The notes beneath the pieces were generated by a model. That model did no database searches, had not been told where the DNA came from, and saw only the letters and a program-made list of their open reading frames with translations. Position numbers and translations under genes: made by a program. From positions 1 through 64,000 of the forward strand of contig CAVYVF010000001.1 in the NCBI GenBank assembly GCA_963771885.1: a stretch of 64,000 bases of DNA. Reading direction: 5' to 3'. Source of the stretch: Candidatus Bathyarchaeota archaeon (GTDB lineage: Archaea > Thermoproteota > Bathyarchaeia > TCS64). The first letter of the stretch is position 1; every line of letters starts with the position of its first letter. Positions 180 to 64,000 of this stretch are shown piece after piece.

Positions 180-714
180 TCAAGACGCCAACAATGATTT
201 CTTCCTATCTATGACCACATGCTCACCCTTCTCATCCAAAGCCATCACAAGCTGAAGAGAACCCGCATCAAACATCCCAGCAAACACCCTAACCACACCA
301 CCAGCCCTCGCCTTCACACCCACCCCATCAGGACAGGCCAACAAGCACAGAATCATAAGAACCCAACCTATCCAAAAACCCCTGATCAGACCAAGCAGGA
401 TTACCCATCAACGCGGCCACATCCTTATCCGCGGTCCACATACACCAGCCATCATTGAACTCAACACCCGCCTTGATCTTCCTCCCCTCAAGCAGCTTCC
501 TAAGCCTCTCAGCCTCGGCCATAATCGCGTTAGGCATCAACGACTTCTTACCCGTCCCCTCCTCCGTGACGACATCATAGACAGGCACAGAGCGATGATG
601 TGCGATAGCCATATTGGCGCAGCTCATACACCCGGTGATGAGGGTGCTCTTCGAGTCTTTGAGCAGCTCCATTATCTTCGTGTCAGGCAAAGTTACAGGA
701 TATTTAACAATAAG
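180..714 (-). CDS. Cys-motif protein resembling the N-terminal region of MetV/MTHFR-associated proteins; frameshift near 340
   Basis: ORF 328..690 (ITGCMSCA...GWCM...YDSVLV) continues after a 1-nt shift as LACPDGVGVKARAGGVVRVFAGMFDAG to a stop at 180. Pattern GCxxC...C...DxVLVLAC. Start codon uncertain. Confidence 0.5.
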
Positions 715-846
715 TTAACGTTGAAGAAACAAGTACAAATGATTTACGCGAGCGACTTTCAAGATTAGACTTTCAACACTACACGGTTGGGTTAGACTCT
801 AACCTTCTCCTGATTCGCAATACCAAAACTCATCTTCCTAACAATA

Positions 847-1080
847 TCAGGATACCTTCTCCATAAACCGGCTCATCAACTTATCAGACAAGAACTGGAA
901 ATCAGAAAGACAATCCCTAGACCACTCCAACTCCCGATACCTCTCAACAATGGGCTTAAACTTCGTCCAAGTATTAACAATCATATACGCCGTAGAGTCA
1001 TCAATCGCATCTAGATCGATGACTCCCGTCCTGTACTGCTGCTCTATAGAGTTGAAGGATGACATTACTGCGGCTCTCTT
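847..1080 (-). pseudogene. C-terminal fragment of a DUF4760-like archaeal multicopy protein
   Basis: NKRAAVMSSFNSI...GVIDLDAI...WTKFKPIVERYR...FQFLSDKLM aligns by eye with the C-terminal half of 1149..1701; no N-terminal TM half upstream. Confidence 0.5.
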
Positions 1081-1148
1081 GTTGTATGTTTTGTGTGTGC
1101 AATAACCTTATCCTAACTGGCACCCGACTCTAAATCAGGTGTAGTTTG

Positions 1149-1701
1149 ATGGTTGAACTAATAGTTATACAATCAATCTCCTATGTATTAGGGTACATCG
1201 GAGTTTTCATTGCGGGGCTGAGCTTTGCTTACAATACCGTGACAACAGCTAAGAACAGAAAGATCGCGTTGACGAACACCTGATGCAGACAATGGCATCC
1301 GAGGAGGGAGTGAGACGGCAAATCTTCCTCATGAACATGGAGTGGACGGACTTTGATGACTTCATTAAGAAGTATGACTCCCGGGTAAATGAGGAAAATT
1401 TCGCCAAGAGGCAGACTTTCATTTTTCACTGTAATTACCTGGGGTATTTAGATTCCGGGAGTCGTTGACATAGGCTCTGTGTTACCAATTAATTGGTGAA
1501 TCTGTAATGGATATGTGGTTGAGGTTAAAACCCATATTACATAGGTACATTGAGATCGGCGATTACGGTAAGGACTCTTTTGAGAACTTCGAGTTTCTTG
1601 CGAATGGAATGATCAGGGTGAAAACGTTGAAGGATCCTGGTTATGTGCGTAAGCGTATCGCTTTCCCTAGTGATAGAGATAGGTTTCAGGTGCCTGAGTA
1701 G
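1149..1701 (+). CDS. DUF4760-like membrane-anchored protein, broken by about 3 frameshifts
   Basis: Reconstructed MVELIVIQSISYVLGYIGVFIAGLSFAYN (TM)...MEWTDFDDFIKKYDSRVNEENFAKR...GVVDI...WLRLKPILHRY...FENFEFLANGM; joins ORFs 1283..1468 and 1507..1701. Confidence 0.55.
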
Positions 1702-2251: not shown

Positions 2252-3112
2252 ATGAGAAATATGAAAATCAATCATAGTTTATTAGCGTTAGCAACTATTT
2301 TGATAATAGGGCAGCAACTAGTGGGTAGCGCATACGCCATCAAAAACGGCGCTCCGGATCAGGAGGAACATCCATACGTATGCTGGATTGCGACGTGGGA
2401 TGGAACTTCCGACTTCATCTACCTCGGTACAGGATCACTAATTACCTCAACAACCGTATTGACCGCTGGGCACATCACGCAGCCACCTGGAGATATCGCA
2501 TTCGCGTGGGTAAATAACGAACCAGAAGCGCAATGGATCGTAGAGAATAATAAAATTCTTGAATCGGAGAAGATAATCGCACTCGGGTGGCACAAAGTCC
2601 TAGCTTGGGAAGCTCATCCAGATTACAGAGCTGTCGGTGAAAAGGGAATAACCGATTGGATAACCCACGATGTCGGAATACTTACTCTTGAAGAACCGAT
2701 TCTCTTAGATGAATATGCTAGTTTGCCAGAACCAGGCTTCGTGGATACGTTACCTAAGAAGCAGGGAGTGGATATTGTGGGGTATGGTGTCCAGGTTCAG
2801 GTGAGGGGCCAGGGTATACCTCCGCCGGGGAATTGGGGCTTTATAAACTTTGGATATCGCTATGGCGCTATTGCCCAGCTGGTAGGGGGCAATGACGTGA
2901 TAAGTGATGAGTTCATGAGGTTGAGTGCTAACCCTGCAAAGGGGAAGGGTGGTACCGCCTTTGGTGATTCCGGTGGCCCTATCCTGCTTGCTGGGACGGA
3001 TACTGTTCTAGGGGTTTGCTCGTGGGGGACTAATAGCAACTTAGCGGGTATCTCGTATGAGCAGCGAATAGATACTGCGGATATACTCGATTGGATAAAA
3101 CACTTTTATTAA
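2252..3112 (+). CDS. Secreted chymotrypsin/trypsin-fold (S1) serine protease
   Basis: Signal peptide ending AYA followed by IKNG; catalytic triad motifs LTAGH, HDVGIL, GDSGGP; SWG. Confidence 0.93.
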   Translation: MRNMKINHSLLALATILIIGQQLVGSAYAIKNGAPDQEEHPYVCWIATWDGTSDFIYLGTGSLITSTTVLTAGHITQPPGDIAFAWVNNEPEAQWIVENNKILESEKIIALGWHKVLAWEAHPDYRAVGEKGITDWITHDVGILTLEEPILLDEYASLPEPGFVDTLPKKQGVDIVGYGVQVQVRGQGIPPPGNWGFINFGYRYGAIAQLVGGNDVISDEFMRLSANPAKGKGGTAFGDSGGPILLAGTDTVLGVCSWGTNSNLAGISYEQRIDTADILDWIKHFY

Positions 3113-3495: not shown

Positions 3496-3521
3496 GCGCG
3501 CGCGCCAATTTCCGAGCGCGT
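3496..3521. repeat. Paired intergenic (GC)n tracts
   Basis: gcgcgcgcgc...gcgcgt in an AT-rich spacer. Confidence 0.85.
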
Positions 3522-21800: not shown

Positions 21801-21980
21801 TATACACTCATATTTTTGCTCATGCAGGATCGTGAGTGCGTCTACCGGATTCAGTATAATGTCTGCTGAGATCGAGTTGTCCGCGTTCTCGATGTTTAAC
21901 TTCGTTAGCTCGATTTGGCTTGGGTCGTCGTCGATGAGGAGGACGCGTATTCGATCCTGCATATCAAATGAAAGGAACAC
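18899..21980 (-). CDS. Soluble hybrid sensor kinase: receiver, about 5 PAS domains, HisKA, HATPase; frameshift near 21250
   Basis: REC (LIDDD, SDFQMP, TGRG, YIRK); repeated PAS ends (DVTERK, QDITDRK, QDVTE, RDIT, RDVTER); AHDLRGPL, NLVRNAVEAM, DTGVGI, GFGLGL. Joins ORFs 21195..21980 and 18899..21325. Confidence 0.9.
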
Positions 21981-22098
21981 CGAAATATATCAATTAGTGA
22001 ATTTAGGAAATGCTTCATACACCAACACAATTACCCGATAGTGATGAATACCCCAGATATTTTATAATCACACTAACTCTACTCTACTCGATATTCTG

Positions 22099-23437: not shown

Positions 23438-23989
23438 TTACACAGCGGCAGCTGCACCAGCATTAAAAAATGGAGTATAGTAAGGATTCGCAGGCGCTGC
23501 GAAGACGCGTGTGGACATCTCCCTATCTATCATTAGCAGTCCCCGACCATCATTACCAACAAGCGCAAGGTTTTTCGCTGCCTCATCCGTGTTCGCCTCC
23601 TCCTCTACCTGCTCCTCTGTAAACCAGTCAAGCATCTTGACGGTGGCGAAGTCTTTCTCGGCACGGGCCAGCTCCATCAAATAGTTGATCCTGCCAGTGA
23701 TGTGTAACTCGTGCTCATGCGCCCCCTCGAAGATGGCGAGGGGACTCGCCCACGAAGCTGGGGGCTTCGCCAACGCCTCCAGCTCCACCTTGAGCCTGCG
23801 ATTTATGATGTAATTGTAGAAAATTGTAGCGTGCGCCTGCTCTTCGTGCGCCTGTATCCACATCCAGTGTGCCATACCTTTGAAGTTTTTATCCCAGAGG
23901 TCAGCAGCCATCGCCTCGTAGATGTACTGGCTGTACAACTCCTCATTTATTTGCTTGTTCAACTCCCGTAGGAGGTTCTCAGATACCAT
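23438..23989 (-). CDS. ftnA: Non-haem ferritin
   Basis: LNKQINEELYSQYIY, QAHEEQAHA, HELHITGRIN, LDWFTEEQVEEE ferroxidase motifs; start ATG 23989. Confidence 0.95.
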   Translation of the reverse strand: MVSENLLRELNKQINEELYSQYIYEAMAADLWDKNFKGMAHWMWIQAHEEQAHATIFYNYIINRRLKVELEALAKPPASWASPLAIFEGAHEHELHITGRINYLMELARAEKDFATVKMLDWFTEEQVEEEANTDEAAKNLALVGNDGRGLLMIDREMSTRVFAAPANPYYTPFFNAGAAAAV

Positions 23990-24273
23990 GAATGGGTTTA
24001 GATATCCACTCTTAAAAACCCTTGATACGTGCGGTGGATTTGAGTTTCCTGCAACGCATATCATGGTTTACACGTTTGTGCCTTTACAAGTCTGTATATC
24101 GATACTGGGAGAATAGATATCCATAATTCTAGTAATCCGCACGCGAAATCAAATTCCAAAGGCGCGCGCGGGAGTTGGGGAAGATTAAGCGGGGACGTGA
24201 CCCGGAATATTGGGCGTTAAAGGTAATTTTGGATGATGATGAGTCGGTTAAGATGTAGCGTTTCACTAGCCTT

Positions 24274-24708
24274 TCACTCTACGTCTTTAGGCGCATCGTT
24301 CCAGAACCGGCTCTCGTTCAGGTAGTCGAGCTGCCAGTCCCCCGGCCAGTCATCCATACGACTAATATTACTGAGCCTATCCGCAAACTTGACGATAACC
24401 GCCTTCTTACTACGCAGACACGGAAAATATCGCCCAGACTCCTTAGACCCAACATGCGTACACTCAACGACCAGATCAGCGACCTCCTTGCTAAACTCCT
24501 GCTCCAGCTCCTCACATGTACCCCCCACATCCTCAACGACGTCGTGCAGAATACCCGCACAGAGCGTCGCCTCATCCGACGTAACCACGTTTAGGATGTT
24601 ATAGACCTGGATTAGATGCGCGAAGAAGTAGGGTCGACCCTGATCGTCACGCTGCCCACGGTGCCTAACACTCGCGTACTCAAGCGCCTTATCCACAAGC
24701 GTATTCAC
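24274..24708 (-). CDS. HD-domain hydrolase, Mesh1 / small alarmone hydrolase-like
   Basis: ALEYASVRHRGQRD..GRPYFFAH...AGILHDVVED...FSKEVADLV...VKFADRLSN. Confidence 0.88.
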   Translation of the reverse strand: MNTLVDKALEYASVRHRGQRDDQGRPYFFAHLIQVYNILNVVTSDEATLCAGILHDVVEDVGGTCEELEQEFSKEVADLVVECTHVGSKESGRYFPCLRSKKAVIVKFADRLSNISRMDDWPGDWQLDYLNESRFWNDAPKDVE

Positions 24709-25143
24709 TCAGCCTTCCTCCGGGGCTCCCTGGGCCAGAAGCAGCTCTTCTTCGAGGTAGGTTTCCTGGTCACACTCAGGCCATCCATCCATTGTGACGA
24801 GTCTGCTGAGGCGGTCAGCGTACTTGAGCATAACACCCTTCCTGCTGTGGAGGCGGGGGTAGTAGTGGCTGCCGTCCTTGTTCTCTTCGTAGGTTACCTC
24901 GTTGACGAGGTCTGCTATGTCCTTGTTGAACTCGTGGAGGAGCTCCTGGTAGGTGGTGGGGGTGTCCTCTAGGATGTCGTGGAGTATGGCTGCGCTGAGT
25001 AGAGTGTCGTCATCGGTGACCTCGTTGAGTATGTCGTAAACTTGGACGACGTGTGCGAAGAAGTAGGGTAACCCGTTGTCGTCCAGCTGCTTCTCGTGCT
25101 TCGTGCTGGCGTACTCGAGGGCTTTGTCCTGGTATCTTCTCAA
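24705..25143 (-). CDS. Second tandem Mesh1-like HD hydrolase; probable 1-nt insertion near 24750
   Basis: ALEYASTKHEKQLD..GLPYFFAH...AAILHDILED...LKYADRLS. The shifted frame gives KSCFW (paralogue ESRFW) and a TGA overlapping the next GTG. Confidence 0.88.
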
Positions 25144-27324: not shown

Positions 27325-29038
27325 ATGCTTCTCGACAAGGCCAACTCGAGCGGAGACGAGAAGCCCTGGTATCGAGTGTGGCCTGACAAGGTCCCAAAGC
27401 ACATCTCCTACCCTCAAAAGTCGCTGGGGGAGCTTCTCGGCTCGAGCGCCGCCAAGCACCCGGACAGGACGGCTCTGGTCTACTATGATAACCGTATCAA
27501 CTACAGGGACCTCGACAGACTAGCTAACAGGTTCGCAAGAGGCTTAGCCGGTCTGGGAGTGAGGAAGGGGGACAGAGTCGCCCTGTACCTCCCGAACACC
27601 CCCCAGTTCATCATCGCGTTCTACGGAGCCATACGTTGCGGCGCGATCGTCACGTCTCTGAACCTGCTGGAAAAGGGAAGCGACATAGAGCATCAGCTGG
27701 TGGACTCAGGTGCTGAGACCATAGTGGCACTGGACCTCTTCTACCCCACACTCTCAGGTGTGATCGATAGGACCCGCCTCAGGAGAGTGATAATCACCAG
27801 GCTGAAGGACTTCATGCCCGCCTCGAAATCGCTTCTGGGAACCCTTCTGGGGAAGATCCCCTCCCAGCCGATCGAGCCTAGAGCAAACCAGTATAACTTC
27901 AAGGGCCTGGTTAACAGAAACGACGATACCCCATACTCCATTGAGATCGATCCCGGCGAAGACATAGCGGTACTTCAGTACACAGGGGGCACGACAGGGA
28001 CACCGAAGGGCGCCATGCTGACCCATCTGAACCTCGTATCCAATACGGTCATGTGCCTAAAGTGGCTGGGGACCGAATCGGATGAGTCCTACCTATCGAT
28101 CCTGCCCTTCTTCCACATCTACGGGCTGATGACAGGCCTCCTCGCGCCGCTGTACATCGGGGCCAAGGTCGTTGTATATCCAAAGTTTGACCCGGGGCAG
28201 GTGCTTCGGGCCATCGAGAAATATAGAATACAGGTCTTCTGTGGCGTGCCGACGCTGTACGACAAACTGCTGAGGGATCCGAGCATCGGAAAGTACGACT
28301 ACTCCTCGCTCAGGTTTTGCATGTCGGGGTCGGATACCCTCCGCCCCGAGCTCAAGGAAAGTTTCGGGAAAGTCTTCGGGTCGACCATTATTGAAGGCTA
28401 TGGCCTCTCTGAGGCATCACCGATTACACACAGCAACCCCCTTGAACCGAAAGTACAGGGAAAAATGGGATCGATCGGAATACCTTGGCCGGACACTGAC
28501 GCAAAGATAGTAGACATCGAGGAGGGAAAGACCTCCCTCAGGATAGGTGAGGTCGGGGAGCTTGCGATCAGGGGCCCCCAGGTGATGAAAGGCTACTGGC
28601 GGAGGCGGGAGGAGACGGACTCGGTTCTCCGAGGCGGGTGGCTCTACACGGGCGACTTAGCCCGTATGGACGAGGAAGGGTACTTCTACATAGTCGACCG
28701 GAAGAAGGACCTGATAAAGTACAAGGGACACAGCGTGTACCCCAGAGAGCTCGAGGCCGTGCTGTATACGCACCCGGATGTTGAGGTCTGTGCTGTCGTC
28801 GGGAGAACCGATTCGGCTGCGGGGGAGATTCCGAAGGGCTACGTTGTTTTGAAGGAGGGGGCGAGGGCATCTGAGGAGGAGTTGATGAGGTTCGTCAACG
28901 AGAGGGTTGCGAGGTACAAGTCCATCAGGGAGATTGAGCTCCGGGCGGAGTTGCCAACTAGCCCAATAGGGAAAGGTCTTGAAGCGTAGCCTCCGTGACG
29001 CATCCTATGATGACGGTTTAGTAAAAAACGGATCATGA
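27325..29038 (+). CDS. fadD: Long-chain acyl-CoA synthetase (FadD-like); frameshift near 28973
   Basis: YTGGTTGTPKG, EGYGLSE, TGD, DRKKDLI; the shifted frame restores GKVLKR and ends at 29038. Confidence 0.9.
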
Positions 29039-29049: not shown

Positions 29050-29089
29050 ACACGCGCGCGAGGAAAAGAGTGAAGGGGTATGCGCGCGC
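29050..29089. repeat. Paired intergenic (CG)n tracts
   Basis: acacgcgcgcg and tatgcgcgcgc, just after the fadD stop. Confidence 0.85.
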
Positions 29090-29181: not shown

Positions 29182-29688
29182 ATGGACCTCACAAAGTTAG
29201 CGGATTATAACCTCTGGGCAAACGACCTCACAAGAGAAAAACTATGCACCTTAACCGAGGAAGAATTCAGCAGAGACGTTCTCCCACCGTATGGGTCCAT
29301 AAAGAACCTCATAACCCACATCGTAGCTGCCATAGAATACAATAGGATTAACAAAGTTGAAGGCGGAAAAATAGAAGGAGACGATCTCCACGGTTTTCTA
29401 TGGCAGATGCCATTAGAGCAGTTACTAAATCATTGGAGAGAAATGGATCTGTGGCTTAAGGAATTTTCTTCGAGTCAGCTGAACCTTAAGACAGTATTTC
29501 CAAACTTTTTGGGTGAGGGTAAGATTTGTGTTGACCACGATGAGTACCTTTTACAATACTTGATTCACACTGTACATCATAGGGCTCAGGTGATGAGTGC
29601 ATTGAGGCTTATGGGTAAGGAAGCCTTAGGTACAGACCTTCTTTTCTACTTGTCGAGTCTACCAGATAAAAAATTGAAGCCTAGATAA
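29182..29688 (+). CDS. DinB/YfiT family protein
   Basis: YNLWAN, GSIKNLITHIV, HTVHHRAQV, GTDL. Confidence 0.88.
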   Translation: MDLTKLADYNLWANDLTREKLCTLTEEEFSRDVLPPYGSIKNLITHIVAAIEYNRINKVEGGKIEGDDLHGFLWQMPLEQLLNHWREMDLWLKEFSSSQLNLKTVFPNFLGEGKICVDHDEYLLQYLIHTVHHRAQVMSALRLMGKEALGTDLLFYLSSLPDKKLKPR

Positions 29689-30757: not shown

Positions 30758-30774
30758 TACGCGCGCGCATACAC
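30758..30774. repeat. 17-nt alternating purine-pyrimidine tract in a divergent spacer
   Basis: tacgcgcgcgcatacac. Confidence 0.85.
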
Positions 30775-35267: not shown

Positions 35268-35278
35268 CGCGCGCGCGT
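35268..35278. repeat. Intergenic (CG)5 tract
   Basis: cgcgcgcgcgt. Confidence 0.85.
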
Positions 35279-36666: not shown

Positions 36667-36694
36667 TATTTACGCGTTAAAGAGTCGGCGTGCG

Positions 36695-37153: not shown

Positions 37154-37266
37154 CGACTCTACTGTTGTCAACATCCGCCTAAAAGTATGAGCAGTTGAGC
37201 CCATCCCTTGACTGAATGATTTCAAATAGTAAGTTGCCTCGAGTAAATACAAAGTCCCATGCCGGG

Positions 37267-39148: not shown

Positions 39149-39150
39149 GC

Positions 39151-39537
39151 TCATTCCTCAGTGAGGAACCCGAGCATTCTCTCCGCGAATCTTTTGAAGG
39201 GCACCCGAATGTACTTTGTTACCTCGGGTGAGGGCTGGAAGAAGCCTCTCCTTGTTAGATCGAAGCCCAAGCCAGTGTAGTCGTCCACTATGACCGCCCT
39301 TATCGAGTCGAGCCCCCTGAGTTTCGCCGCCCTGAATCGGTGGTGGCCGTCGAGAACGGCGTAGAGGGTCTTTGATGGGTGCTTGATGACGATTATGGGA
39401 GTAATTTTCCTAGGGTCGTGTCTAGTTAGGTCTCTGGCATAGCCCTCGTCGATTAGGTCGTCACTCTCAATTTGCGCGAGTGGGAGCTCTACGGCGTGCT
39501 CATCTGGGTTGATGTATGCTGTGATTAGATCTGTCAT
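39151..39537 (-). CDS. ParB-N / sulfiredoxin-like domain protein
   Basis: ITPIIVIK...YAVLDGHHRFRAAKLRG...IRAVI. Confidence 0.85.
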   Translation of the reverse strand: MTDLITAYINPDEHAVELPLAQIESDDLIDEGYARDLTRHDPRKITPIIVIKHPSKTLYAVLDGHHRFRAAKLRGLDSIRAVIVDDYTGLGFDLTRRGFFQPSPEVTKYIRVPFKRFAERMLGFLTEE

Positions 39538-39751
39538 CGGGCTATTCTTTCTAGTGTTAAGGTGCTTATTGCATTATTGGAGGGCACGTAATGAACGTAC
39601 ACAGCGTCGAATGCACCTAGCGGCGTGCACGTACATAGAGGTAGACATCCACGAGCGTCCTAACCAGTACCAGAATAACTAGGAAACCCATATTCCCCCG
39701 CGCGCGACTCTAGCGAGTGCGTTAGTAGGGACCCAATAGCAAACATACGAG

Positions 39752-40966
39752 TCACTCTGATGGTTTTGACCCCTTTTTTCTCTCGAGCTGTCTCCGACTA
39801 TAAGTCTCAACCCCGAATACCGCCGTGATGACCCCGCTCACGAGCACTATCCCCGCCATGAAATAGAACGGGGTCTTGAGATCAGTCGTATCAGCAAGCA
39901 CCCCCATGAGGAGAGGCCCTAGGATGAACGCAATGTCACCAAAGAACCTGAACACCCCCATGCTTATTCCACGAGGCTCCTTGTCCGTCGCATCCGTTAC
40001 CATCGCAAAGGGCGCCTGCCCACTACCGATCGTCGCAACGCCCATGAAGACCGCCGCCAGGCTTAGAGAGAGGTAATCACCTGTGAAAGGGTAGATGGCG
40101 CAGGAGACCGCGGATAATAGCAGAGCAATCCAAGTGATCGGCTTCCTGCCAAAGTAATCCACGCAGAATCCAACAGGCATAGTGAGAAGGAGCCCCATCA
40201 ACGACGCATAAGTCAACACCGTCCCGATGCTCACCTGATCAAGGCCTAAAACGCTGCTGGCATAGAGGCTAATCATGTAACCCCGGATACCGGTCATCAT
40301 CAGAAAACCAGAGAAACTCGCAATACAAGCTATGGCGAAGGCTCGGATCCCGAGAAGGTGGCGAACATAGCCGATGCTGAACACGTGCGAACCCCCCTCA
40401 ACTTTACGGGGAGGCTCAATCAAGAAGAAGTAGCTAAGCAACATACTCGCGATCCCAGCGATGAAGTACGCCATGAAGGGCGCCCGGATCCCCCAATACT
40501 CCGCGACGAATCCTCCTACCGTAGGCCCCATCGAGGAACCGAGGAGCATGAAAGTGGAAAAGTAACCCATTACGCGGCCCCTCTCCTCCGGCTTCAACAT
40601 ATCCGCCAGAATCGAAGTACGCGCCGTCTGCCACATGCTAGAGCCTACACCCTGTATGAATCGAAGAGCGATGAACCAGGCAAAGTCCGGAGCGTAAAAG
40701 TTAAAGAAAGCGCCAAAAGCGAGCAGAATCGTACCCATGACTGTTAATCGGCGACCACCTATGCGATCCGCGAGAATCCCCATGGGGATATCCGCGATCA
40801 GCCGCCCCACAGCGTACATACTAACCGCGAGGCTGACCAAGGTATAAGAAACCCCGAAGCTCTTCGCGTAGAGTGGCAGACTGGGAGTAACTATGTTCAT
40901 CCCTAGGAAGACAAAGAAAGTCGGCAAGTAAAGCGAGAGAAAGTCGTTAAACTTAGAGCGCTCCAA
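39752..40966 (-). CDS. MFS transporter
   Basis: GILADRIGGRR and DYFGRK motif-A repeats; about 12 TM. Confidence 0.93.
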   Translation of the reverse strand: MERSKFNDFLSLYLPTFFVFLGMNIVTPSLPLYAKSFGVSYTLVSLAVSMYAVGRLIADIPMGILADRIGGRRLTVMGTILLAFGAFFNFYAPDFAWFIALRFIQGVGSSMWQTARTSILADMLKPEERGRVMGYFSTFMLLGSSMGPTVGGFVAEYWGIRAPFMAYFIAGIASMLLSYFFLIEPPRKVEGGSHVFSIGYVRHLLGIRAFAIACIASFSGFLMMTGIRGYMISLYASSVLGLDQVSIGTVLTYASLMGLLLTMPVGFCVDYFGRKPITWIALLLSAVSCAIYPFTGDYLSLSLAAVFMGVATIGSGQAPFAMVTDATDKEPRGISMGVFRFFGDIAFILGPLLMGVLADTTDLKTPFYFMAGIVLVSGVITAVFGVETYSRRQLERKKGSKPSE

Positions 40967-45468: not shown

Positions 45469-45779
45469 ACTCTAACCCTCAAATTATCTATAATATTCAC
45501 GTGCGCACGAGTGTGGAAAAACAGAATTTTTCTGGAAATATATAAAAAAAAATAGCGCGCGCAAAATCAAGTCAGGCTTTACAGAACAGATAAGCAGGAC
45601 GCATTTCAAGTTCTTCAAGTCCCTAGGATTGCCTCTCGAGAAGATTAACGGAGTATTCTGCGGGGGTGGCTTGGATCAACTGGAACTAGTTCACGCGATT
45701 ATCGAATAACTTTCGGATACGTACTTGCGCACGCATGAGCTCATCCTGTTGTAAGGATTGACATTCTTTAAAAAAAATG

Positions 45780-51601: not shown

Positions 51602-51664
51602 ACGCGTTTTTCTGAATTAGGTAGCGCGTACACTAGGTCTCGCGTGTATTATTATACGCGCGCG
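51602..51664. repeat. Cluster of four CGCG-core tracts between convergent genes
   Basis: acgcgt, gcgcgtacac, cgcgtgtat, tatacgcgcgcg. Confidence 0.8.
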
Positions 51665-55785: not shown

Positions 55786-56922
55786 TTAGTCAACAATTGT
55801 TAGGTCTTTATGGAATTTTGTGAAGGGCTCTCCCCCTCTTTTCGTGACAAGGACGACGTCCTCGACCCGTGCGCTCCAGCTCTGAGGCAGCAATATACTC
55901 GGCTCAACGGTGAATGTCATGCCTTCTCTCAGTACGGTGTCGTCGGGTATGTAGAGGAAGGGTGGCTCATGAACGGTAACGCCGATGCCGTGGCCGAGCC
56001 TGTGCATGAAGTAGTCGCCGTAGCCAGCCTTCTCTATGATGATTCTCGCCTCATTATCTAGTTCCTGTGCTGTGATCGACCCGTCTACCATCTTTTCTAT
56101 GCCTTTCGCCTGGCTCTCCATCACTATGGCGTGTATCTTTTCAACCTCAGTTGGAGGATTACCGCAGAAGGCGGTTCTTCCGAAGTCGTTGGCGTAGCCT
56201 TCTAGTAGGCAGCCAAAGTCAAAGCTAACGGTGTCGCCTTTCTCCAGCTTTCTTTTATGTGGTGGAGCAAGTCCACTTGGCTTCTTCGGGCTTCTGAATC
56301 TCGCCGCAGTTACGAAGCTGTTCTGTTCCGCGCCGTAAGCAGCATAGAGACGGTCTATCTCCTTCTCAACTCCCGCTTCGGTGACCCCACTCCTAAGATA
56401 CTCAAGTGTCTCTGCGTATACCTTGTCTGTGAGCCTAGCTGCGGCTTTCATAGCCTCTATCTCTTCAGCATCCTTGATCATTCTCATCTCGAAGATGACG
56501 GGTCCGGCGAGGCTGAGTTCAACGTTTGGTATGTTTCGCTTGATTGTGTCTATTGTCTGCGCCCACGCGCGGTCATCGACCATGACTTGGCGGGGATTAT
56601 GTCTCCTCAGAACCTCTTTCTGAACATCAGCGGGGTTCCTATGCTCATCGAAGATCAATACTTCAGTAACGTATGGTTTTCCATCGGCCTCAGCCCTCCA
56701 CCCCGAGCCACCCATTCTGGGTCCAACTAGGGTGAGTTTATCCTGCGTAAGATAAGCGCCGCAGACGTAGTCGCCATAAGCGTTGTGGTCCGTGAGTTCG
56801 GCTCCTCTGCGCCTTACACCGGTAAGGTACCAGAGGTTGGCGCCCCTGGTCAGGTATAGGAGATCAACTCCACGTCTCGTCATCTCTTGGCGGATCCTTC
56901 TGAGTCGCCCTGCATAATCCAT
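55786..56922 (-). CDS. Xaa-Pro peptidase, M24 family
   Basis: FDFG...YANDFGRT, HRLGHGIG..VHEPP, TVEPS, RVEDVVLV. Confidence 0.93.
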   Translation of the reverse strand: MDYAGRLRRIRQEMTRRGVDLLYLTRGANLWYLTGVRRRGAELTDHNAYGDYVCGAYLTQDKLTLVGPRMGGSGWRAEADGKPYVTEVLIFDEHRNPADVQKEVLRRHNPRQVMVDDRAWAQTIDTIKRNIPNVELSLAGPVIFEMRMIKDAEEIEAMKAAARLTDKVYAETLEYLRSGVTEAGVEKEIDRLYAAYGAEQNSFVTAARFRSPKKPSGLAPPHKRKLEKGDTVSFDFGCLLEGYANDFGRTAFCGNPPTEVEKIHAIVMESQAKGIEKMVDGSITAQELDNEARIIIEKAGYGDYFMHRLGHGIGVTVHEPPFLYIPDDTVLREGMTFTVEPSILLPQSWSARVEDVVLVTKRGGEPFTKFHKDLTIVD

Positions 56923-59211: not shown

Positions 59212-60330
59212 ATGTCTGACTCGAAAACGAAGCCGAGGGCGAGAGACCTGGGCATCCCGCTCCAAGGTAGAACGGGGAAATACAACGCCATAACTGACGT
59301 TCAAGGCGTAACTGTGGGCCACGAAACCATCATCGCCGGCGAAGGCAAGCTCGAGGTAGGCATAGGCCCCATAAGAACAGGCGTAACAGCCATACTCCCC
59401 AGAGCCGACCACAGCGACCCCGTCTTCGCCGCCTGGTCCTGCCTGAACGGAAACGGCGAGATGACGGGAACCACATGGGTGGATGAATCAGGCTTCCTTA
59501 GCGGCCCCATATTGATAACAAACACCCACAGTGTCGGAGTCGTCCACGACTCGGTCATTGAGTGGTCGCAGAGAACCCGAAAATCTAGGGTCGGCAACCC
59601 CTGGTCTCTGCCAGTAGTAGCCGAAACCTACGACGGCTTCCTGAACGACATAAACGGCTTCCACGTCCGAAGGGACCACGTTTTCAAAGCCCTCAACAAC
59701 GCCTCTGGAGGCCCAGTTGAGGAGGGAAACGTCGGCGGCGGTACGGGTATGATCTGCCACAAGTTCAAGGGGGGAATCGGCACATCATCACGAACTCTAC
59801 GCTTGGCAGACTCAGACTATGTGGTTGGGGCGCTAGTTCAGGCAAACTACGGGCTCCGTGAGCAACTAACAATCTCAGGAGTCCCAGTAGGCCAAGAGAT
59901 CCCCGACCTCTTGCCCGTGGAGAATGGGCAAACACCTCGAGACGGCGAACAGGGATCCATCATAGTAGTGATTGCCACCGACGCGCCTCTTCTCCCACAC
60001 CAGCTTCGCAGGCTAGCCAAGCGCGCGCCAATGGGCATCGCGAGGGTCGGGGGAATTGGCGGCAACGGTTCCGGCGACATATTTGTCGCGTTCTCCACCG
60101 CAAATCCACACGTGATGAGTGATAAGGAGGTGAAGACAGTTCAGATGCTCCCTAACGAGTTGATGACTGACCTCTTCCAGGCTACAGTCCAGGTAGTGGA
60201 GGAAGCTATCTTGAACGCCCTCGTCGCCGCGAGAACAATGACGGGCATAGATGGCAACACGGTCTACGCGATTCCCCATGAGCGACTCAGAGAAGTGCTT
60301 AGAAAATTCAATCGTCTAGCCAAAGAATAG
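59212..60330 (+). CDS. dmpA: DmpA / P1 (S58) family aminopeptidase
   Basis: RARDLGI, NAITDV, NGNGEMTG, EEGNVGGGTGM, GSIIVVIATDAPL (autoprocessing G|S), GSGDIF. Confidence 0.93.
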   Translation: MSDSKTKPRARDLGIPLQGRTGKYNAITDVQGVTVGHETIIAGEGKLEVGIGPIRTGVTAILPRADHSDPVFAAWSCLNGNGEMTGTTWVDESGFLSGPILITNTHSVGVVHDSVIEWSQRTRKSRVGNPWSLPVVAETYDGFLNDINGFHVRRDHVFKALNNASGGPVEEGNVGGGTGMICHKFKGGIGTSSRTLRLADSDYVVGALVQANYGLREQLTISGVPVGQEIPDLLPVENGQTPRDGEQGSIIVVIATDAPLLPHQLRRLAKRAPMGIARVGGIGGNGSGDIFVAFSTANPHVMSDKEVKTVQMLPNELMTDLFQATVQVVEEAILNALVAARTMTGIDGNTVYAIPHERLREVLRKFNRLAKE

Positions 60331-60397
60331 ATACGAATCTACCAAGCCTCAGCGCGCGCAGGTGACTGACATTAGTTTTATTAAAAAATGGAGTAAA

Positions 60398-63135
60398 TTA
60401 CAAGTGGTGAGAATTTTTCCAATCCATCGTTTTACGAGTCGTCACGAGAGTTGTTAGACATATCGTTGTGATAATGAATCCCCCTGCTGAGGCAGTCATA
60501 ATAGATCCCGAATATAGTGTCTCTGCTATTACCATCGTTACTATACTACCCAACCAGAAGAACAAGGCTAATTGTATTGACTTAGTTGATGGTTTAACAT
60601 TTATTTTACGATTCAATAAAAGTAGGAGTGGTAGAATATATATTAAAGTGAAAAGGAAACTAGCGCTAAAACCGGCACAGATTATCCCAATCTCAGGATT
60701 CGAACTGAGTAAGTTGAAAGTTTGTTCGCTAATAAGCAGAATTCCGATAAGAGGATATAAAGCGACTTTCAAAGATCCCCTCATGATCTCATTATTGCGG
60801 ATGGTTGAGGCAATTGATGGACTGAAACCGTAGTAGAAAGAATAGAAAGCTGCCATAAAATTGCTCCCGGCAAATGTGCTTAGGACAGTATTATCCCTGA
60901 ATCCCCTGAGAAACTGAACATCTGGGCTGAGTTCGGATATATAGGTGGCTACTTGGATGAAGCAATTGGAAGAGGAACCGGGTGAAGTAGCCTTGACCTT
61001 GAACGAGTTGCTGACACCAGTCTTACCGCCTCCATTTGTTGTTATGGTTACGGCATCGGCTATCGTACCAAACCTTACTTTGATTTTGCCGACACCATCA
61101 GAAATTGCCAAACTCGTTGGTTCAATGGGTATTGGAGTAGACGATAATGTGTTTGTACCTTGATAGTTGGTAATTGTGTAATTATGAGAATCTACCGCTG
61201 TTATATATATTTCAAAATATACCCCTACCTCTTGCTCAGGTATCTCATCAACGAATATTCCATCCGAAAATTGGATTTTAAAATGATCTAATGAACCGAG
61301 AGGATAGTCTAAAACATCGAATGTATTACTAGTGCCATATTCATTTCCTTGCGATCTTACTGTTTTCAAATATTGAGAATGTCCAAGCATGCCTAAAGTA
61401 ACTGAACCTTCCCAGATGCCTGATTCAAAGGTAATGCTTCTTGGTGACAACGGATCAAGTAATTCAAGGGTATTACTGAATAACTTCAAGCTATTAACTT
61501 CAGAGTAACTCTCCACTAGCTGGTCTGATGCATCAACTGCAGTAATTTTAACACGGAATGGTGAATTCTTCACGACTGAAGAACTAATTAAGTCAAAATT
61601 GAAGTGATGTAAAACTCTGGGAGACTCATCCTTGAGAGTAATAATTATAGAATTAACCGAACTTTCATCTATGAGGACATTCTCTAGGTCTGCAATTTCG
61701 TTGCCTTTTTGTGCCTGTATCTTATAGATGCCGAGAATAAGCTCATCAAAAAGAACTGTGCCGCTTATCGGTGTTATTTGTTCTTCAGGTATTGATTGTC
61801 CGGGAGGGCACTCTGTTATTCGTACAGTCGCTCCCTCAATTGCATCTCCACTAAGCTCAATAACTTTTACCTCTAAGCTCCTAGTCTCAGCAATTATTAG
61901 CGTGGTTCTTGTAACCTGACCTGCTGAAACCTCTGTTGATTGGCTTACTAGGACTTGTCCATCCCTAGATGTTTCAAGGGTATAGACACCAGGTCTTACC
62001 CCTTGAACTCAGCGATGCCATTCTCATCGGTAGTTCCCTGGAGTGGCGTCTGTCCCTCAGGCTGACTTGTCGAGATGATATCTGCAGTACTTAGAGGCTC
62101 TCCTCGATTGTCGGTACATGCAGCTACTAAGGTTCCCGTAGTTGGTATGAACTTCTGGATTCTCCCATTACCAGTATCCGCTATATAGAATGTTCCCCCT
62201 TTATCCACTGCGACTCCACGAGGATCGTTAAATTTGCCGTTTCCAGACCCTTGACCGCCCCACACATCAGTCAACGTACCGTTGACATCGAATCTCTGGA
62301 TGCGACTATTATCGGAGTCAGCTATGTAGACATTGCTGAATATATCTACGGCAACATCCTCGGGATCAATAACCTGGCCTTCATTGTCACCATAACTTGC
62401 TAAAAAATATTCAAAGGTCCCATTACTGTTGAATTTCTGGACCCTATTGTTCTCTTCATCCCCAACATAGATGTTACCTTCGCCATCTACTGCCACACTT
62501 TCGGGACAATTAAACTGGCCAGGTGCAACTCCATAAGATCCGAACTTAAATATGAAAGTCCCATTAGGATAGAACTTCTGGATTCGGTGGTTCTCTCTAT
62601 CCGCGACATAGACGTTGCCATAATTATCAACAGCGATCCCCGCCGGATTTATGAACTGGCCCGGCCCAGAGCCAAAGCTTCCACTAATCCCTATGAAGGT
62701 TCCGCTAAGGTCGAATCGCTGTACGCGATGATTGTTACAATCTGTTACATATACTAATTTACGCTCACTATCTACGGCGATTCCCTCAGGATCGTTGAAT
62801 TGCCCAGATCCTGTACCGGAGCCGCCCCAAGTTTTTAAAAGCGTTCCATTCGAATCATATTTATCAATCCGATTTGTGTTTCGTCCCGCGACGTACACGT
62901 TACCAAACTCATCCACATCAATAAAGTATGGATCCGGGTTCCCCCACTGAAGCTTATACTGGTAATTGCTGTCTGACACAGCGTTAACGAAACCCGGCGC
63001 AAACGCTTGTCCAACAATAATAAAAACGAGATAAACCAATAGAATCATGTGCCTATTGCCCTGATTGTAGAGCATAAACAACATCACTATACTTCCAAGG
63101 AACAGTAAGATATTTAAAATAATGGCTATAACCAA
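60398..63135 (-). CDS. Large surface protein: NHL beta-propeller, transthyretin-like and Ig-like repeats, CFI-box-CTERM; frameshift in a G-run near 62000
   Basis: About six NHL repeats (GQFxxPxGIAVD..GNVYVAD..NHRIQKF); FKG|VRPGVYTL joins in frame to ORF 61573; CFIQVATYISELSPDVQFLRGFRD...FYYGFSP plus TMs. True start probably 63048-63075. Confidence 0.85.
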
Positions 63136-63224
63136 CCGAGTTAACTGCGCTTGCGAAAAATGGAAGATATGTATTCTGAAACCGCATCACTTAAACAAGG
63201 TCAAACAAATCAAACCTTAGAGAA

Positions 63225-64000
63225 ATGGCGCAATCCCACAATCCAAAAACAATCACGGTGCTAAACGCCCTCATCCTACTCTCCCTACTAACACTTCCAA
63301 CCCTAACCATCCTAACCATCGCCAACATCGCTGGAATAGCACAGACAATTAACCTCGAAGACACCAACCAAGCCTACACTGAGAACAAGGTCACCATGTC
63401 AGCCACCCTCACCCTCAACAACCCCGGACCATTCCAAGCAGAAACAAACATCGAGGCAACACTCAGAGATACACACGGAAACAAGTACCCGATAAACGGT
63501 CCACAGCTAATCCTCCCCCCGGGGCCGCACAGAGTCCCCGTAGAAGTAACCGTCGACCTAACCAACCTCCGGGAAGAACAGCTACAGAGCCTAGCACTCA
63601 ACCCAGAGAATTTCACCCTGACAGCCGTCGCCACGGTAGGCCTGCAGCCCATCGCATCCATAACCGCGGATACGACGGCGACCATTCACTGGATGCCACC
63701 CATGCACAACCTCACCATAAGCGAGCCGAGAATCACATCTATCACCCCCACCCAGATCACAATAGAGACACTGGTATCATTCGACAACCAGTCACCCACG
63801 CAGCTCAACGCTGACCTACGGGTCAAAATCACAGACTCAAACAGCCAACAGGCGGGCGGAGGGTTACTAGCCATCACAGCCGACCCCGGATCCCGATACT
63901 CGCAGCCCCTACAGCTAAACATAACACCGCCGACTAAAATAGACCCCTTAACAGACCACACTTACACCTATATGGTGACTCAGGAGCTCACACTAACCGA
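63225..64000 (+). CDS. Membrane-anchored beta-rich protein (LEA-2-like), truncated by the window end
   Basis: ATG 63225 MAQSHNPKTITVLNALILLSLL..., LTLNNPGPF, VSFDNQSP; no stop before 64000. Confidence 0.7.
   Translation, partial: MAQSHNPKTITVLNALILLSLLTLPTLTILTIANIAGIAQTINLEDTNQAYTENKVTMSATLTLNNPGPFQAETNIEATLRDTHGNKYPINGPQLILPPGPHRVPVEVTVDLTNLREEQLQSLALNPENFTLTAVATVGLQPIASITADTTATIHWMPPMHNLTISEPRITSITPTQITIETLVSFDNQSPTQLNADLRVKITDSNSQQAGGGLLAITADPGSRYSQPLQLNITPPTKIDPLTDHTYTYMVTQELTLT

What the first reader, a model, noticed from the sequence alone, without database searches (positions are those of the whole stretch)
180..64000. Kilobase-scale sawtooth in strand composition that flips at the (CG)n-marked spacers
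Seen by eye, not computed: the + strand tends to be G/T-rich just left of a marked spacer and C/A-rich just right of it, whichever strand is coding. C/A-rich examples: 180-560, 24300-24700, 29200-29400, 39800-40900, 51700-52400, 59230-59700, 63230-64000. G/T-rich examples: 1450-1740, 2760-3110, 24760-25140, 28780-28950, 39300-39590, 56760-56880. Single genes (S1 protease, DinB, DmpA) drift from C/A-ending codons at the 5' end to G/T-ending codons at the 3' end. There are exceptions, such as 25436-27160. Known: G+T versus A+C skew usually reflects replication strand asymmetry and flips at origins and termini. Inference: a strand-asymmetric process (dispersed replication initiation or termination, repair, or resection) may be anchored at these spacers.
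Basis: partly seen in the sequence, partly recalled or inferred. Interest (0 to 1): 0.72.

Follow-up and report, generated by a model that had tools for sequence, protein, structure and literature searches.

The report
Gene-polar strand-composition ramp in archaeal islands
In the low-GC accessory DNA of this sediment archaeon, each gene or operon drifts from C/A-rich at its start to G/T-rich at its end and resets at long spacers, which looks like a local strand-specific mutation bias and not like scattered replication origins.

Summary
In this Bathyarchaeia MAG, low-GC3 genes show a 5'-to-3' ramp of sense-strand keto skew at fourfold sites (per-gene slope 0.18 +- 0.026, n=304, p=4e-11). High-GC3 core genes show none (-0.009 +- 0.010, n=1184).

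The ramp consists of transitions only (C to T, A to G). GC stays flat, and the ramp does not depend on the following base. In tract-adjacent genes it affects all three codon positions, so it looks mutational rather than a codon-choice effect. It continues across operon junctions and resets at long spacers.

It recurs in 4 of 5 congeners. It is absent from 1.2 Mb of other Bathyarchaeia run through the same pipeline.

(CG)>=4 tracts are 10-25x enriched in spacers. Marked spacers show a larger sign change (orientation-adjusted excess +0.035 +- 0.012 here, +0.019 +- 0.011 in congeners). Three results argue against the tract as cause:
- Tracts inside genes cause no flip.
- The 100 bp next to a tract carry no skew.
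- There is no dose-response with tract length.

Convergent gene pairs show the opposite raw sign. There is no replichore-scale skew, and two Orc1/Cdc6 genes exist.

Best reading: a transcription-unit-anchored asymmetric transition bias. Break and resection at spacers remains a live rival. Dispersed replication is unlikely.

The parts
123..132 (.). (CG)5 tract in the spacer downstream of the - strand gene 328-690
   Evidence: The adjacent gene has third-position skew 0.1.8.7.8.79 from 5' to 3'.
328..690 (-).
   Evidence: No Pfam match.
2252..3112 (+). Trypsin-like (S1) protease gene with a strong ramp; a (CG)5 tract lies downstream at 3496-3505
   Evidence: fourfold slope .90
3496..3505 (.). 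(CG)5 tract in a convergent spacer
23438..24064 (-). Ferritin-like gene with a tract upstream; ramp slope .56
24162..24170 (.). (CG)4 tract between two - strand genes
24274..25143 (-). Tandem HD-domain paralogues (24709-25143 upstream, 24274-24708 downstream; 54% aa identity). Third-position skew is about -.6 and +.6 on the same strand, a step with no spacer between them.
27325..28989 (+). AMP-binding enzyme gene. Its last sixth turns G/T-rich (+.30) just before the tract pair.
29053..29089 (.). Two (CG)4 tracts (29053-29060, 29082-29089) in one co-directional spacer. Strain-level deletions end in or beside them.
   Evidence: joints at 29058 and 29081
29182..29688 (+). DinB-family gene with the steepest ramp in the window (slope 1.26)
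30760..30768 (.). (CG)4 tract at the called 5' end of the - strand ORF 30227-30787. A 934-bp strain deletion ends here.
35268..35277 (.). (CG)5 tract in a co-directional spacer
39151..40966 (-). Gene pair around the tract at 39699-39706. The MFS gene 39752-40966 (tract at its 3' side) has skew of about +.2 throughout. Gene 39151-39537 (tract at its 5' side) has -.45 to -.05.
45555..45562 (.). (CG)4 tract in a convergent spacer
51657..51664 (.). (CG)4 tract at the 3' edge of the - strand metallo-beta-lactamase-fold gene
59212..60330 (+). Peptidase S58 (DmpA) gene. Third-position skew runs from -.42 to -.06/-.15. Tracts lie at 60021-60028 (genic) and 60352-60359 (22 bp past the stop).
63225..64000 (+). 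Gene with strongly C/A-ending codons (third-position skew -.62 to -.31); it runs off the window

Best explanation
**What it is (shown).** This is a ramp in strand composition that follows transcription units in the low-GC, accessory part of the genome. Reading the sense strand from 5' to 3', C gives way to T and A gives way to G while G+C stays constant. The ramp runs through operon junctions and resets at long spacers.

Every unit is C/A-rich at the 5' end of its own sense strand and G/T-rich at its 3' end. The + strand therefore shows a sawtooth that looks independent of gene orientation.

**How it most likely works (inferred).** A strand-asymmetric transition bias is tied to transcription. 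The non-template strand is single-stranded more often or for longer toward the 3' end of poorly translated, AT-rich accessory genes, for example through R-loops or RNA polymerase uncoupled from ribosomes and pausing before termination. Hydrolytic deamination there gives C to T and A to G.

The bias shows only where selection for C-ending codons is weak. Core genes stay flat.

(CG)n tracts are a separate, strongly enriched spacer element. They mark spacers with larger amplitude but neither cause nor centre the flip. Replication is not involved.
For: **The ramp.**
- Low-GC3 genes: slope .151 +- .027 in small contigs (n=307, p=4e-8).
- Length-only ORF calling without a codon model: .182 +- .026 (n=304, p=4e-11), against -.009 +- .010 (n=1184) for high-GC3 genes.
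- It persists in the central 15-85% of genes.23 +- .038.
- It is also present in clustered low-GC3 genes inside the big contigs (.26-.36).

**Signature.**
- T/(C+T) rises from .40 to .50, and G/(A+G) from .39 to .46.
- GC4 slope is .003.
- The ramp is the same in all four next-base contexts.
- In 83 low-GC3 tract-adjacent genes, all codon positions shift.076.108 and .355. Third-position skew runs from -.245 to +.068.

**Transcription-unit level.**
- There is no reset at gaps of 60 bp or less (d -.047, n=42; -.09, n=19).
- There is a reset at gaps above 150 bp (d +.18, n=83).
- Spacer DNA itself has almost no skew.

**Pipeline control and replication in relatives.**
- 85 other Bathyarchaeia loci (1.22 Mb): slopes -.03 to -.06.
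- A same-class genome: -.012 +- .019.
- Five congeners, 674 genes.115 +- .019 (p=7.5e-8), positive in 4 of 5.

**Against replication.**
- The autocorrelation of strand-oriented skew vanishes by about 12 genes.
- Global skew is weak.
- Orc1/Cdc6 genes lie on C2 and C17.
Against: - The direction of mutation is inferred from composition only. No polarised substitutions could be obtained, because the closest homologues are 53-65% identical at the amino-acid level.
- No RNA data exist, so transcription units are guessed from gaps.
- Plain non-template-strand deamination predicts only a 3' rise. In low-GC3 genes of 1200 bp or more, the 5' 450 bp are also lower than mid-gene: -.056 +- .030, against +.042 +- .011 in core genes. 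A spacer-anchored symmetric process predicts exactly this.
- The levels at the two gene ends do not grow with unit length. This argues against a simple distance-from-promoter clock.
- The local tract effect is not explained by this model: per-gene slope increments up4 +.186 (t=4.0) and dn4 +.166 (t=3.9). In high-GC3 genes the slope is .154 for adjacent genes and 0.000 for the next gene.
- Opposite-strand neighbours share + strand skew: coding-oriented r is -.24 and -.17, or -.30 and -.21 in high-confidence genes. This points to a DNA-level component.
- The gene calls are my own crude ones, and the genome is a MAG with 6.7% estimated contamination.
Confidence: 0.4

Rival explanations
1. Spacer-anchored DNA breakage or nicking, possibly favoured at Z-DNA-prone (CG)n tracts, is followed by bidirectional 5'-to-3' resection. 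The 3'-ended single strands left on each side deaminate (C to T, A to G) and are copied during repair. This writes G/T-richness left of the spacer and C/A-richness right of it on the + strand, like a fixed, recurrent form of the strand-coordinated mutation clusters seen at resected breaks.
For: - The sign fits standard single-strand deamination chemistry without extra assumptions.
- The pattern is reverse-complement symmetric.
- The signature is transitions only, context-free and present at all codon positions.
- The range of roughly 500-1000 bp is, from recalled knowledge, about the length of resection tracts.
- There is both a 5' dip and a 3' rise relative to core genes.
- The effect is local and tract-specific on the adjacent gene half: h1~up4 -.069 (t=-2.65), h2~dn4 +.077 (t=3.25).
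- Only adjacent genes are affected.
- Excess flip at marked spacers: +.035 +- .012 here and +.019 +- .011 in congeners.
- Strain-level deletion joints end in or beside tracts at 23270, 29058, 29081 and 30760.
- Opposite-strand neighbours share + strand skew.
Against: - There is no skew in the 100 bp next to tracts, where exposure should be greatest.
- Non-coding sites at 100-600 bp give only .023 +- .019.
- The 54 genic tracts are silent.
- There is no dose-response with tract length, and (TA)4 and other anchors behave alike.
- Gene-level tract adjacency was not reproduced in congeners (MWU p=.50).
- In G000, convergent spacers gain nothing from a tract (-.061 against -.057).
- Joints at tracts could be alignment ends at a conserved low-complexity word within hypervariable spacers.
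Confidence: 0.22
2. Selection rather than mutation causes the ramp. C- and A-ending codons, which pair Watson-Crick with G34 and U34 tRNAs (recalled knowledge), are favoured early in messages. G/U-ending codons are tolerated or favoured late, for example for mRNA structure or stability, or because 3' codons of often-truncated transcripts are translated less.
For: - The effect is largest at synonymous sites.
- It is confined to coding DNA.
- It follows the sense strand.
- The 5' parts resemble the core genes' preference for C.
Against: - Codon positions 1 and 2 shift too in tract-adjacent genes (p=.012 and 5.5e-5).
- G/(A+G) rises toward the 3' end, that is toward the core preference, while T/(C+T) moves away from it. 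This is not a simple fading of codon bias.
- Third-position skew crosses zero to +.068.
- The ramp is absent from core genes, where translational selection should be strongest.
- It is absent from other Bathyarchaeia.
Confidence: 0.1
3. There is no anchored process. The accessory DNA is a mosaic of genes and gene pieces of different origin, orientation history and codon habit (transfers and inversions). The average ramp is a by-product of that heterogeneity, of MAG mis-binning, or of my gene calls.
For: - Per-gene skew is very heterogeneous: sd .215. The tandem paralogues show +.6 against -.6.
- The window's AMP-binding gene has no orthologue in 17 congeners (36-38% identity only).
- Estimated contamination is 6.7%.
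- Several window genes appear to be split.
Against: - A mosaic has no reason to be polar. 65% of 304 low-GC3 genes have positive slopes (p=4e-11) under two independent gene-calling schemes, and also in the central 70% of genes.
- The same sign appears in 4 of 5 congeners.
- The same pipeline gives none in 1.2 Mb of other Bathyarchaeia or in G030.
- The codon frame signal (G at position 1) stays intact to the ninth decile.
Confidence: 0.1
4. Dispersed replication initiation or termination at the marked spacers. Each spacer acts as a small terminus, or each gene middle as an origin, and leading/lagging mutational asymmetry writes the sawtooth.
For: - The sign is that of a bacterial-type terminus: G/T left, C/A right.
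- There is no strong global skew that would compete with it.
Against: - Units of about 1-2 kb that coincide with genes and operons are not plausible replicons.
- There is no reset at operon junctions.
- Spacer DNA carries no skew.
- Two canonical Orc1/Cdc6 genes are present.
- The effect is confined to accessory DNA.
- Genic tracts are silent.
Confidence: 0.03

Closest known systems
Transcription-associated mutational strand asymmetry (excess C>T and A>G on the non-template strand; recalled from work on E. coli and mammals, not read here)
   Same: It follows the sense strand of transcription units, involves the same two transitions, and is strongest at synonymous sites.
   Different: - Here it is a ramp within each unit, C/A-rich at the 5' end and G/T-rich at the 3' end. 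It is not a uniform or 5'-weighted offset.
- It is confined to low-GC accessory DNA of one archaeal genus.
- Expression dependence could not be tested.
Time-single-stranded deamination gradients of mitochondrial genomes (Seligmann 2012, PMC3269015, search-listing abstract only: A>G and C>T gradients, strongest at third and weakest at second codon positions; the same abstract notes gradients from single-strandedness during transcription)
   Same: The same two transitions are involved. The change is monotonic with distance from an anchor. The size order third position much greater than first and second is seen here.
   Different: - The anchor here is not a replication origin.
- The period is one gene or operon rather than a genome.
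- The organism is an archaeon with ordinary Orc1/Cdc6 genes.
Bidirectional strand asymmetries originating at human CpG islands (Polak & Arndt 2009, PMC2817419; abstract read)
   Same: A CpG-rich landmark is flanked by opposite complementary-substitution asymmetries on its two sides.
   Different: - The human pattern is origin-like, extends up to about 1 Mb in intergenic DNA, and was measured from substitutions.
- Here the sign is terminus-like, the range is about 0.5-1 kb, the effect lies in genes and not in spacers, and it was measured from composition only.
Strand-coordinated mutation clusters flanking resected double-strand breaks (kataegis-like; recalled, not read here)
   Same: The mutated strand switches across the break. 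The sign matches 3'-tail exposure after 5'-to-3' resection.
   Different: - Those are single events in one cell lineage driven by cytosine deaminases with sequence context.
- Here the pattern is an equilibrium-like composition, context-free, includes A>G, and leaves no mark next to the supposed break site.
Generic 3'-end codon bias toward AT-rich codons (Zahdeh & Carmel 2019, PMC6892556; abstract read)
   Same: Core genes here show that effect: less C and more A/T in the terminal deciles at both ends.
   Different: The ramp has flat GC, spans the whole gene, exchanges C for T and A for G, and is absent from core genes.

Membership tests
Replication-associated strand skew (origin/terminus switch) | Skew of one sign persists over a replichore, independent of gene orientation | tested here: not met
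   The autocorrelation of strand-oriented fourfold skew falls from .37 (lag 1) to about .02 by lag 12 and is 0 beyond that. Contig-scale skews are weak and patchy.
Replication-associated strand skew (origin/terminus switch) | The sign change coincides with an origin or terminus (initiator gene, origin repeats) | tested here: not met
   Orc1/Cdc6 genes lie at C2:265899-266984 and C17:20806-21900, with none in the window. Flips occur at hundreds of spacers. Origin repeats were not searched.
Transcription-associated mutational asymmetry | The asymmetry follows the sense strand of transcription units | tested here: met
   The ramp has the same sign in + and - genes. It continues across gaps of 60 bp or less and resets at gaps above 150 bp. 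Units were inferred from gaps, not from RNA.
Transcription-associated mutational asymmetry | Excess of C>T and A>G on the non-template strand, measured as substitutions | not testable with these tools
   Only composition shifts were seen. The closest fetchable relatives are 53-65% identical at the amino-acid level. The single read-laying run gave summary counts only.
Transcription-associated mutational asymmetry | Strength scales with expression | not testable with these tools
   No RNA holder was listed.
Single-strand-exposure deamination gradient (mitochondrial type) | Monotonic C>T and A>G change with distance from an anchor, in the order third > first/second position | tested here: met
   Slopes of .355 (position 3).076 (position 1) and .108 (position 2) in 83 genes.
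Single-strand-exposure deamination gradient (mitochondrial type) | The anchor is a strand-displacement replication origin | tested here: not met
   The period equals a gene or operon.
Z-DNA-prone (CG)n fragile site | Alternating CG run of 8 bp or more, enriched beyond composition | tested here: met
   10 matches against .55 expected in the window. 506 and 257 per Mb of intergenic DNA, against 20 and 28 per Mb of genic DNA.
Z-DNA-prone (CG)n fragile site | The tract acts wherever it lies, and more strongly when longer | tested here: not met
   54 genic tracts give d of about 0. Fourfold d is .096 for n=3.092 for n>=4 and .106 +- .11 for n>=5.
Z-DNA-prone (CG)n fragile site | Rearrangement end points cluster at tracts | tested here: inconclusive
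   4 joint ends of 15 listed joints lie in or beside tracts. Only the best-supported joints were shown, and an alignment artefact is not excluded.
Generic gene-end codon bias (AT-rich codons near the stop) | A rise of A/T-ending codons confined to the gene end | tested here: not met
   The GC4 slope is .003, and the ramp is present in the central 15-85% of genes.

The most novel reading that the evidence does not exclude
Spacers of the flexible genome of this Bathyarchaeia genus, especially those carrying Z-DNA-prone (CG)n tracts, are recurrent break or nick sites. Bidirectional resection there exposes 3' tails that deaminate before repair. Over evolutionary time this writes a permanent, reverse-complement-symmetric, kilobase-scale mutational sawtooth into neighbouring genes and even changes their amino-acid composition. 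The spacer DNA itself turns over too fast to keep the mark.
Probability: 0.17. Interest if true: 0.8.

Novelty: new variant of a known kind. Interest (0 to 1): 0.52.

Why it matters
**If the ramp is mutational.** It would be a readable footprint of which DNA strand is exposed, where, and for how long, in an uncultured archaeon. No genetics or RNA data exist for this organism. The footprint would also show that accessory genes there evolve under a position-dependent bias strong enough to alter proteins.

**What it could distinguish.** It could tell transcription-linked exposure from repair-linked exposure in archaea by sequence alone.

**Practical warning.** Gene-scale composition in such islands is not stationary. 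This affects codon-usage-based gene finding, binning and transfer detection.

**If it is only transcription-linked bias unmasked by weak selection.** It is then a modest extension of known asymmetries.

Tried and rejected
- **RNA evidence.** No RNA holder was listed for window 24000-33999, so there was no test of transcripts or antisense RNA.
- **Close relatives for polarised substitutions.** The genome contigs and metagenome-contig scans with the AMP-binding protein returned only 41-65% identical homologues. The read-laying run showed 85-99% relatives in four metagenomes but printed only 40 of 1763 differences. No positional spectrum was therefore possible.
- **Conserved motif or TATA box beside tracts.** None was found in 302 outward-read flanks.
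- **Tandem repeats in 1-2000.** None.
- **CpG- or deaminase-type context.** The ramp is equal in all four next-base contexts. The previous-base half of that script crashed and was not rerun.
- **Out-of-frame ORF tails or over-extended starts as the cause.** Rejected. The position-1 G signal stays intact to decile 9, and the ramp is present in the central 15-85% of genes.
- **Codon-model bias of my gene caller.** Rejected by length-only calling and by null results on other genomes.
- **Hypermutated patches.** The spread of local third-position skew in low-GC3 genes (sd .247) matches that of other Bathyarchaeia (sd .242). Only the position within genes differs.
- **My interim claim of no 5' dip.** It rested on 22 long units. 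I withdrew it after the gene-level comparison with core genes.
- **Earlier notes of this scan on skew.** None were found.
- **Prior description of such a ramp or of (CG)n spacers in archaea.** Three full-text searches found none. Subscription journals are not covered.

Full report
**Setting.** The window is the first 64 kb of contig C1 of a 2.46-Mb, 23-contig assembly.
- A full-length archaeal SSU rRNA lies on C23. Estimated completeness is 92% and contamination 6.7%.
The nearest named homologues of a window gene are Bathyarchaeia MAGs.
- Four big contigs have 55-58% G+C. Nineteen small ones, including C1, have 44-55%.
- I called genes with a simple self-trained ORF scorer: 2529 genes, 81% coding.
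- Pfam matched 40 of the window's 60 called proteins at E <= 1e-5. They are ordinary accessory functions, with no transposase, integrase or phage family among the matches.

**Is the observation there?** Locally, yes.
- All 7 intervals named C/A-rich lie at the 0.1-14th percentile of same-length windows.
- Five of the 6 named G/T-rich lie at or above the 98th percentile. One (56760-56880) is at the 80th.
- The three named genes drift as described, and the named exception is flat.
- Over the window's 51 genes of 300 bp or more, the fourfold-site slope of sense-strand keto skew (G+T-A-C) is .117 +- .060, with 32 positive.

**Genome-wide, the drift is a solid property of low-GC3 DNA.**
- Slope in small contigs.151 +- .027 (n=307, p=4e-8). 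In the big contigs.021 +- .009.
- It depends on the region, not the contig. Low-GC3 genes that sit in clusters inside the big contigs have slopes of .26-.36, and isolated ones .06.
- Calling genes by length alone (200 aa or more, no codon model) gives .182 +- .026 for 304 low-GC3 genes (66% positive, p=4e-11) and -.009 +- .010 for 1184 high-GC3 genes.
- The ramp is as strong in the central 15-85% of genes (.23 +- .038), so it is not an end or start-codon artefact.
- The codon-frame signal stays intact to the ninth decile, which rules out out-of-frame tails.

**What changes along the gene.**
- At fourfold sites, T/(C+T) rises from .40 to .50 (slope .079 +- .016), and G/(A+G) from .39 to .46 (.098 +- .014).
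- The same holds at twofold sites. GC4 is flat (.003 +- .010).
- The shift is equal whatever the next base is.
- It is thus a pure amino-to-keto exchange by transitions. It is not a fading of the host's codon preference, because G/(A+G) moves toward the core value while T/(C+T) moves away from it.
- In the 83 low-GC3 genes that adjoin a (CG)>=4 tract, all codon positions shift (.076 +- .029.108 +- .027.355 +- .051). Third-position skew runs from -.245 to +.068.
- In the 360 other low-GC3 genes only position 3 shifts clearly (.106 +- .020).
- This pattern, and amino-acid differences such as those between the tandem HD paralogues (R, G, V, C against K, E, N, D, T), point to mutation pressure rather than synonymous codon choice.

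**What anchors it.**
- In low-GC3 co-directional pairs, the skew does not reset across gaps of 60 bp or less (3' flank minus next 5' flank: -.047 +- .042, n=42; -.09 +- .043, n=19). It does reset across gaps above 150 bp (+.18 +- .036, n=83).
- Anchored at the 3' end of inferred units, the skew climbs smoothly per 200 bp: -.30, -.26, -.24, -.23, -.20, -.15, -.14, -.10, -.05.
- The end levels do not grow with unit length.
- Relative to mid-gene, low-GC3 genes of 1200 bp or more are lower at the 5' end (-.056 +- .030) and higher at the 3' end (+.124 +- .026). Core genes are +.04 at both ends.
- Spacer DNA itself carries almost no skew.

**A point of logic.** A unit that is C/A-rich at its sense-strand 5' end and G/T-rich at its 3' end looks the same after reverse complementation.
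- A gene-polar ramp and a process anchored symmetrically at spacers therefore predict the same + strand sawtooth in all four gene arrangements.
- What can be said is that the raw claim fails for convergent pairs. There the general C/A excess of sense strands dominates and the + strand is C/A-rich on the left and G/T-rich on the right.

**The (CG)n tracts are real elements.**
- The window holds 10 CGCGCGCG matches, against .55 expected.
- Genome-wide there are 506 (small contigs) and 257 (big contigs) tracts per Mb of intergenic DNA, against 20 and 28 per Mb of genic DNA.
- They have no conserved flanks.
- (CG)5 occurs in 16 of 18 genomes of the genus. Tracts are rare in other Bathyarchaeia: 76 per Mb intergenic, and none intergenic in G030.

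**Evidence that tracts are associated with the sawtooth.**
- The averaged + strand profile around 154 intergenic tracts changes sign. All sites at 100-600 bp: +.019 left, -.022 right, difference .0415 +- .012, p=7e-4. Fourfold sites.092 +- .047.
- Low-GC3 genes without an adjacent tract have slope .129 (n=360). With one downstream it is .389 (n=45), and with one upstream .394 (n=31).
- In high-GC3 genes the figures are -.004 (n=1661).129 (n=52) and .14 (n=45).
- With GC3, gap length and contig class as covariates, the increments are +.186 +- .047 and +.166 +- .043. Each acts on the gene half that faces the tract.
- The effect is local. High-GC3 genes next to a tract have slope .154 +- .039, and the next gene 0.000.
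- Orientation-adjusted, marked spacers exceed unmarked ones by .035 +- .012 (n=112, p=.004).

**Evidence against the tract as cause or centre.**
- The 100 bp next to a tract have skew .005 +- .012 and .008 +- .011.
- Non-coding sites at 100-600 bp give only .023 +- .019.
- The 54 tracts inside genes give no flip (.004 +- .036 and -.013 +- .036).
- Exact (CG)3, (CG)>=4 and (CG)>=5 give the same fourfold difference (.096, .092, .106).
- Other intergenic anchors behave alike: (TA)4 gives .153 +- .067.

**Relatives.**
- The same pipeline finds no ramp in 400 kb of a same-class genome (-.012 +- .019), or in 85 other Bathyarchaeia loci (1.22 Mb, -.03 to -.06).
- In a mostly core 400-kb stretch of congener G013, 47 genes with GC3 of .45-.65 give no clear ramp.
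- In 785 kb fetched around (CG)5 sites of five congeners, the ramp is present: 674 genes, .115 +- .019, p=7.5e-8. By genome: G009 .134, G007 .163, G011 .087, G016 .190, G008 -.023.
- The all-site sign change at 171 intergenic tracts there is .032 +- .010 (p=8e-4). At 52 genic tracts it is .012 +- .020.
- The orientation-adjusted excess over unmarked spacers is +.019 +- .011 (p=.07).
- Tract-adjacent genes there are not steeper than their neighbours (MWU p=.50).
- These regions were chosen for having tracts, and congeners are not independent samples.

**Replication.**
- The strand-oriented residual skew of neighbouring genes is correlated at short range only.37 at lag 1.07 at lag 8, and about 0 from lag 12.
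- Contig-scale skews are weak.
- Two Orc1/Cdc6 genes are present, on C2 and C17.
- Nothing suggests kilobase replicons.
- One unexplained DNA-level signal remains. Opposite-strand neighbours have anticorrelated sense-strand skew (r = -.24 convergent, -.17 divergent; -.30 and -.21 for high-confidence genes), which means they share + strand skew.

**Strain comparison.**
- No RNA run was listed.
- Contigs of four metagenomes that are 85-99% identical cover window 20001-40000.
- Of the 15 listed deletion or replacement joints, four end in or beside a (CG)n tract (23270, 29058, 29081, 30760). Several replaced segments contain GCGC words. This hints at instability at tracts, but it could be alignment ends in hypervariable spacers.
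- On the + strand, window-G/relative-A differences outnumber window-C/relative-T in all four runs (174 v 82, 71 v 44, 266 v 156, 51 v 18). A/G and T/C differences are balanced. I could not place these differences along genes.

**Explanation.**
- The shown part: a transition-type, strand-asymmetric ramp that follows genes and operons in accessory DNA of this genus and resets at long spacers.
- The inferred part: I rank transcription-linked single-strand exposure of the non-template strand, increasing toward 3' ends of poorly translated AT-rich genes and visible where codon selection is weak, first at about 0.4.
- It accounts for confinement to coding or transcribed DNA, operon continuity and the silence of genic tracts.
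- It does not account well for the 5' dip, the local tract effect or the shared skew of opposite-strand neighbours.
- Break or nick plus resection at spacers fits those three points and the chemistry. It is contradicted by the skew-free zone beside tracts, the silent genic tracts and the missing dose-response. I rank it at about 0.2.
- Selection on codons or mRNA, mosaic origin or artefact, and dispersed replication rank lower.

**Comparison with what is known.**
- The components are known: non-template-strand deamination bias (recalled); time-single-stranded gradients in mitochondria (PMC3269015, listing abstract); opposite asymmetries flanking human CpG islands (PMC2817419, abstract); strand-switching clusters at resected breaks (recalled).
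- The generic AT-rich codon bias near stops (PMC6892556, abstract) is seen in the core genes here but is a different thing.
- A survey of Z-DNA-prone sequences reports about 1.7-fold enrichment in archaea against dinucleotide-preserving shuffles (bioRxiv 10.64898/2025.12.30.697008, passages read). This is far below the 18-fold excess in this window.
- Three full-text searches found no description of a gene-scale keto ramp confined to archaeal accessory DNA, or of its link to (CG)n spacers.
- I file it as a new variant of a known kind, of moderate interest, with mechanism open.

Noticed in passing
window 42643-44797; 32926-34249; 50233-51514: Three genes look split or truncated. (1) Anaerobic ribonucleotide reductase NrdD lies in two adjacent ORFs in different frames (Pfam NRDD positions 1-169 and 166-562). 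(2) An oxidoreductase C-terminal domain lies in two overlapping ORFs (positions 1-180 and 184-274 of 278). (3) A photolyase ORF holds only the N-terminal domain and is followed by a separate ORF. These are either decaying accessory genes or assembly indels.
   Followed up: partly
window 20001-40000 (joints at 23270, 29058, 29081, 30760; replaced letters in table 5c): Related strains in four metagenomes differ from the window by deletions or replacements. Several ends of these lie in or beside (CG)n tracts, and the replacement letters contain GCGC words. The spacers seem hypervariable, with the tracts as break or junction points.
   Followed up: partly
window 20001-40000, + strand: Differences to related contigs are strand-asymmetric for one transition pair only. 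Window-G/relative-A exceeds window-C/relative-T 1.6-2.8 fold in all four runs, while A/G and T/C differences are balanced. This is unexplained and could not be placed along genes.
   Followed up: no
whole genome; window tracts at 123, 3496, 24162, 29053, 29082, 30760, 35268, 39699, 45555, 51657, 60021, 60352: Stand-alone (CG)4-5 palindromes with no conserved flanks are 10-25x denser in spacers than in genes. They are far above dinucleotide expectation, are shared by 16 of 18 genomes of the genus, and are rare in other Bathyarchaeia. Their function is unknown.
   Followed up: partly
window 24274-25143: Two tandem 144-aa HD-domain paralogues (54% identical) on the same strand, with no spacer between them, use opposite codon endings: about 80% G/T against about 80% C/A at third positions. 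Their amino-acid compositions are shifted to match.
   Followed up: partly
G000:C17:20806-21900 and the 19 small contigs (about 375 kb in total): One of the two Orc1/Cdc6 genes sits on a low-GC small contig. The small contigs might together be a secondary replicon rather than scattered islands. The window's AMP-binding gene has no orthologue in 17 congeners (best 36-38% identity).
   Followed up: no
genome-wide, neighbouring genes on opposite strands: Sense-strand fourfold skew of opposite-strand neighbours is anticorrelated (r -.17 to -.30). This means a shared + strand component over a few genes, also in core DNA. No model tested here explains it fully.
   Followed up: partly
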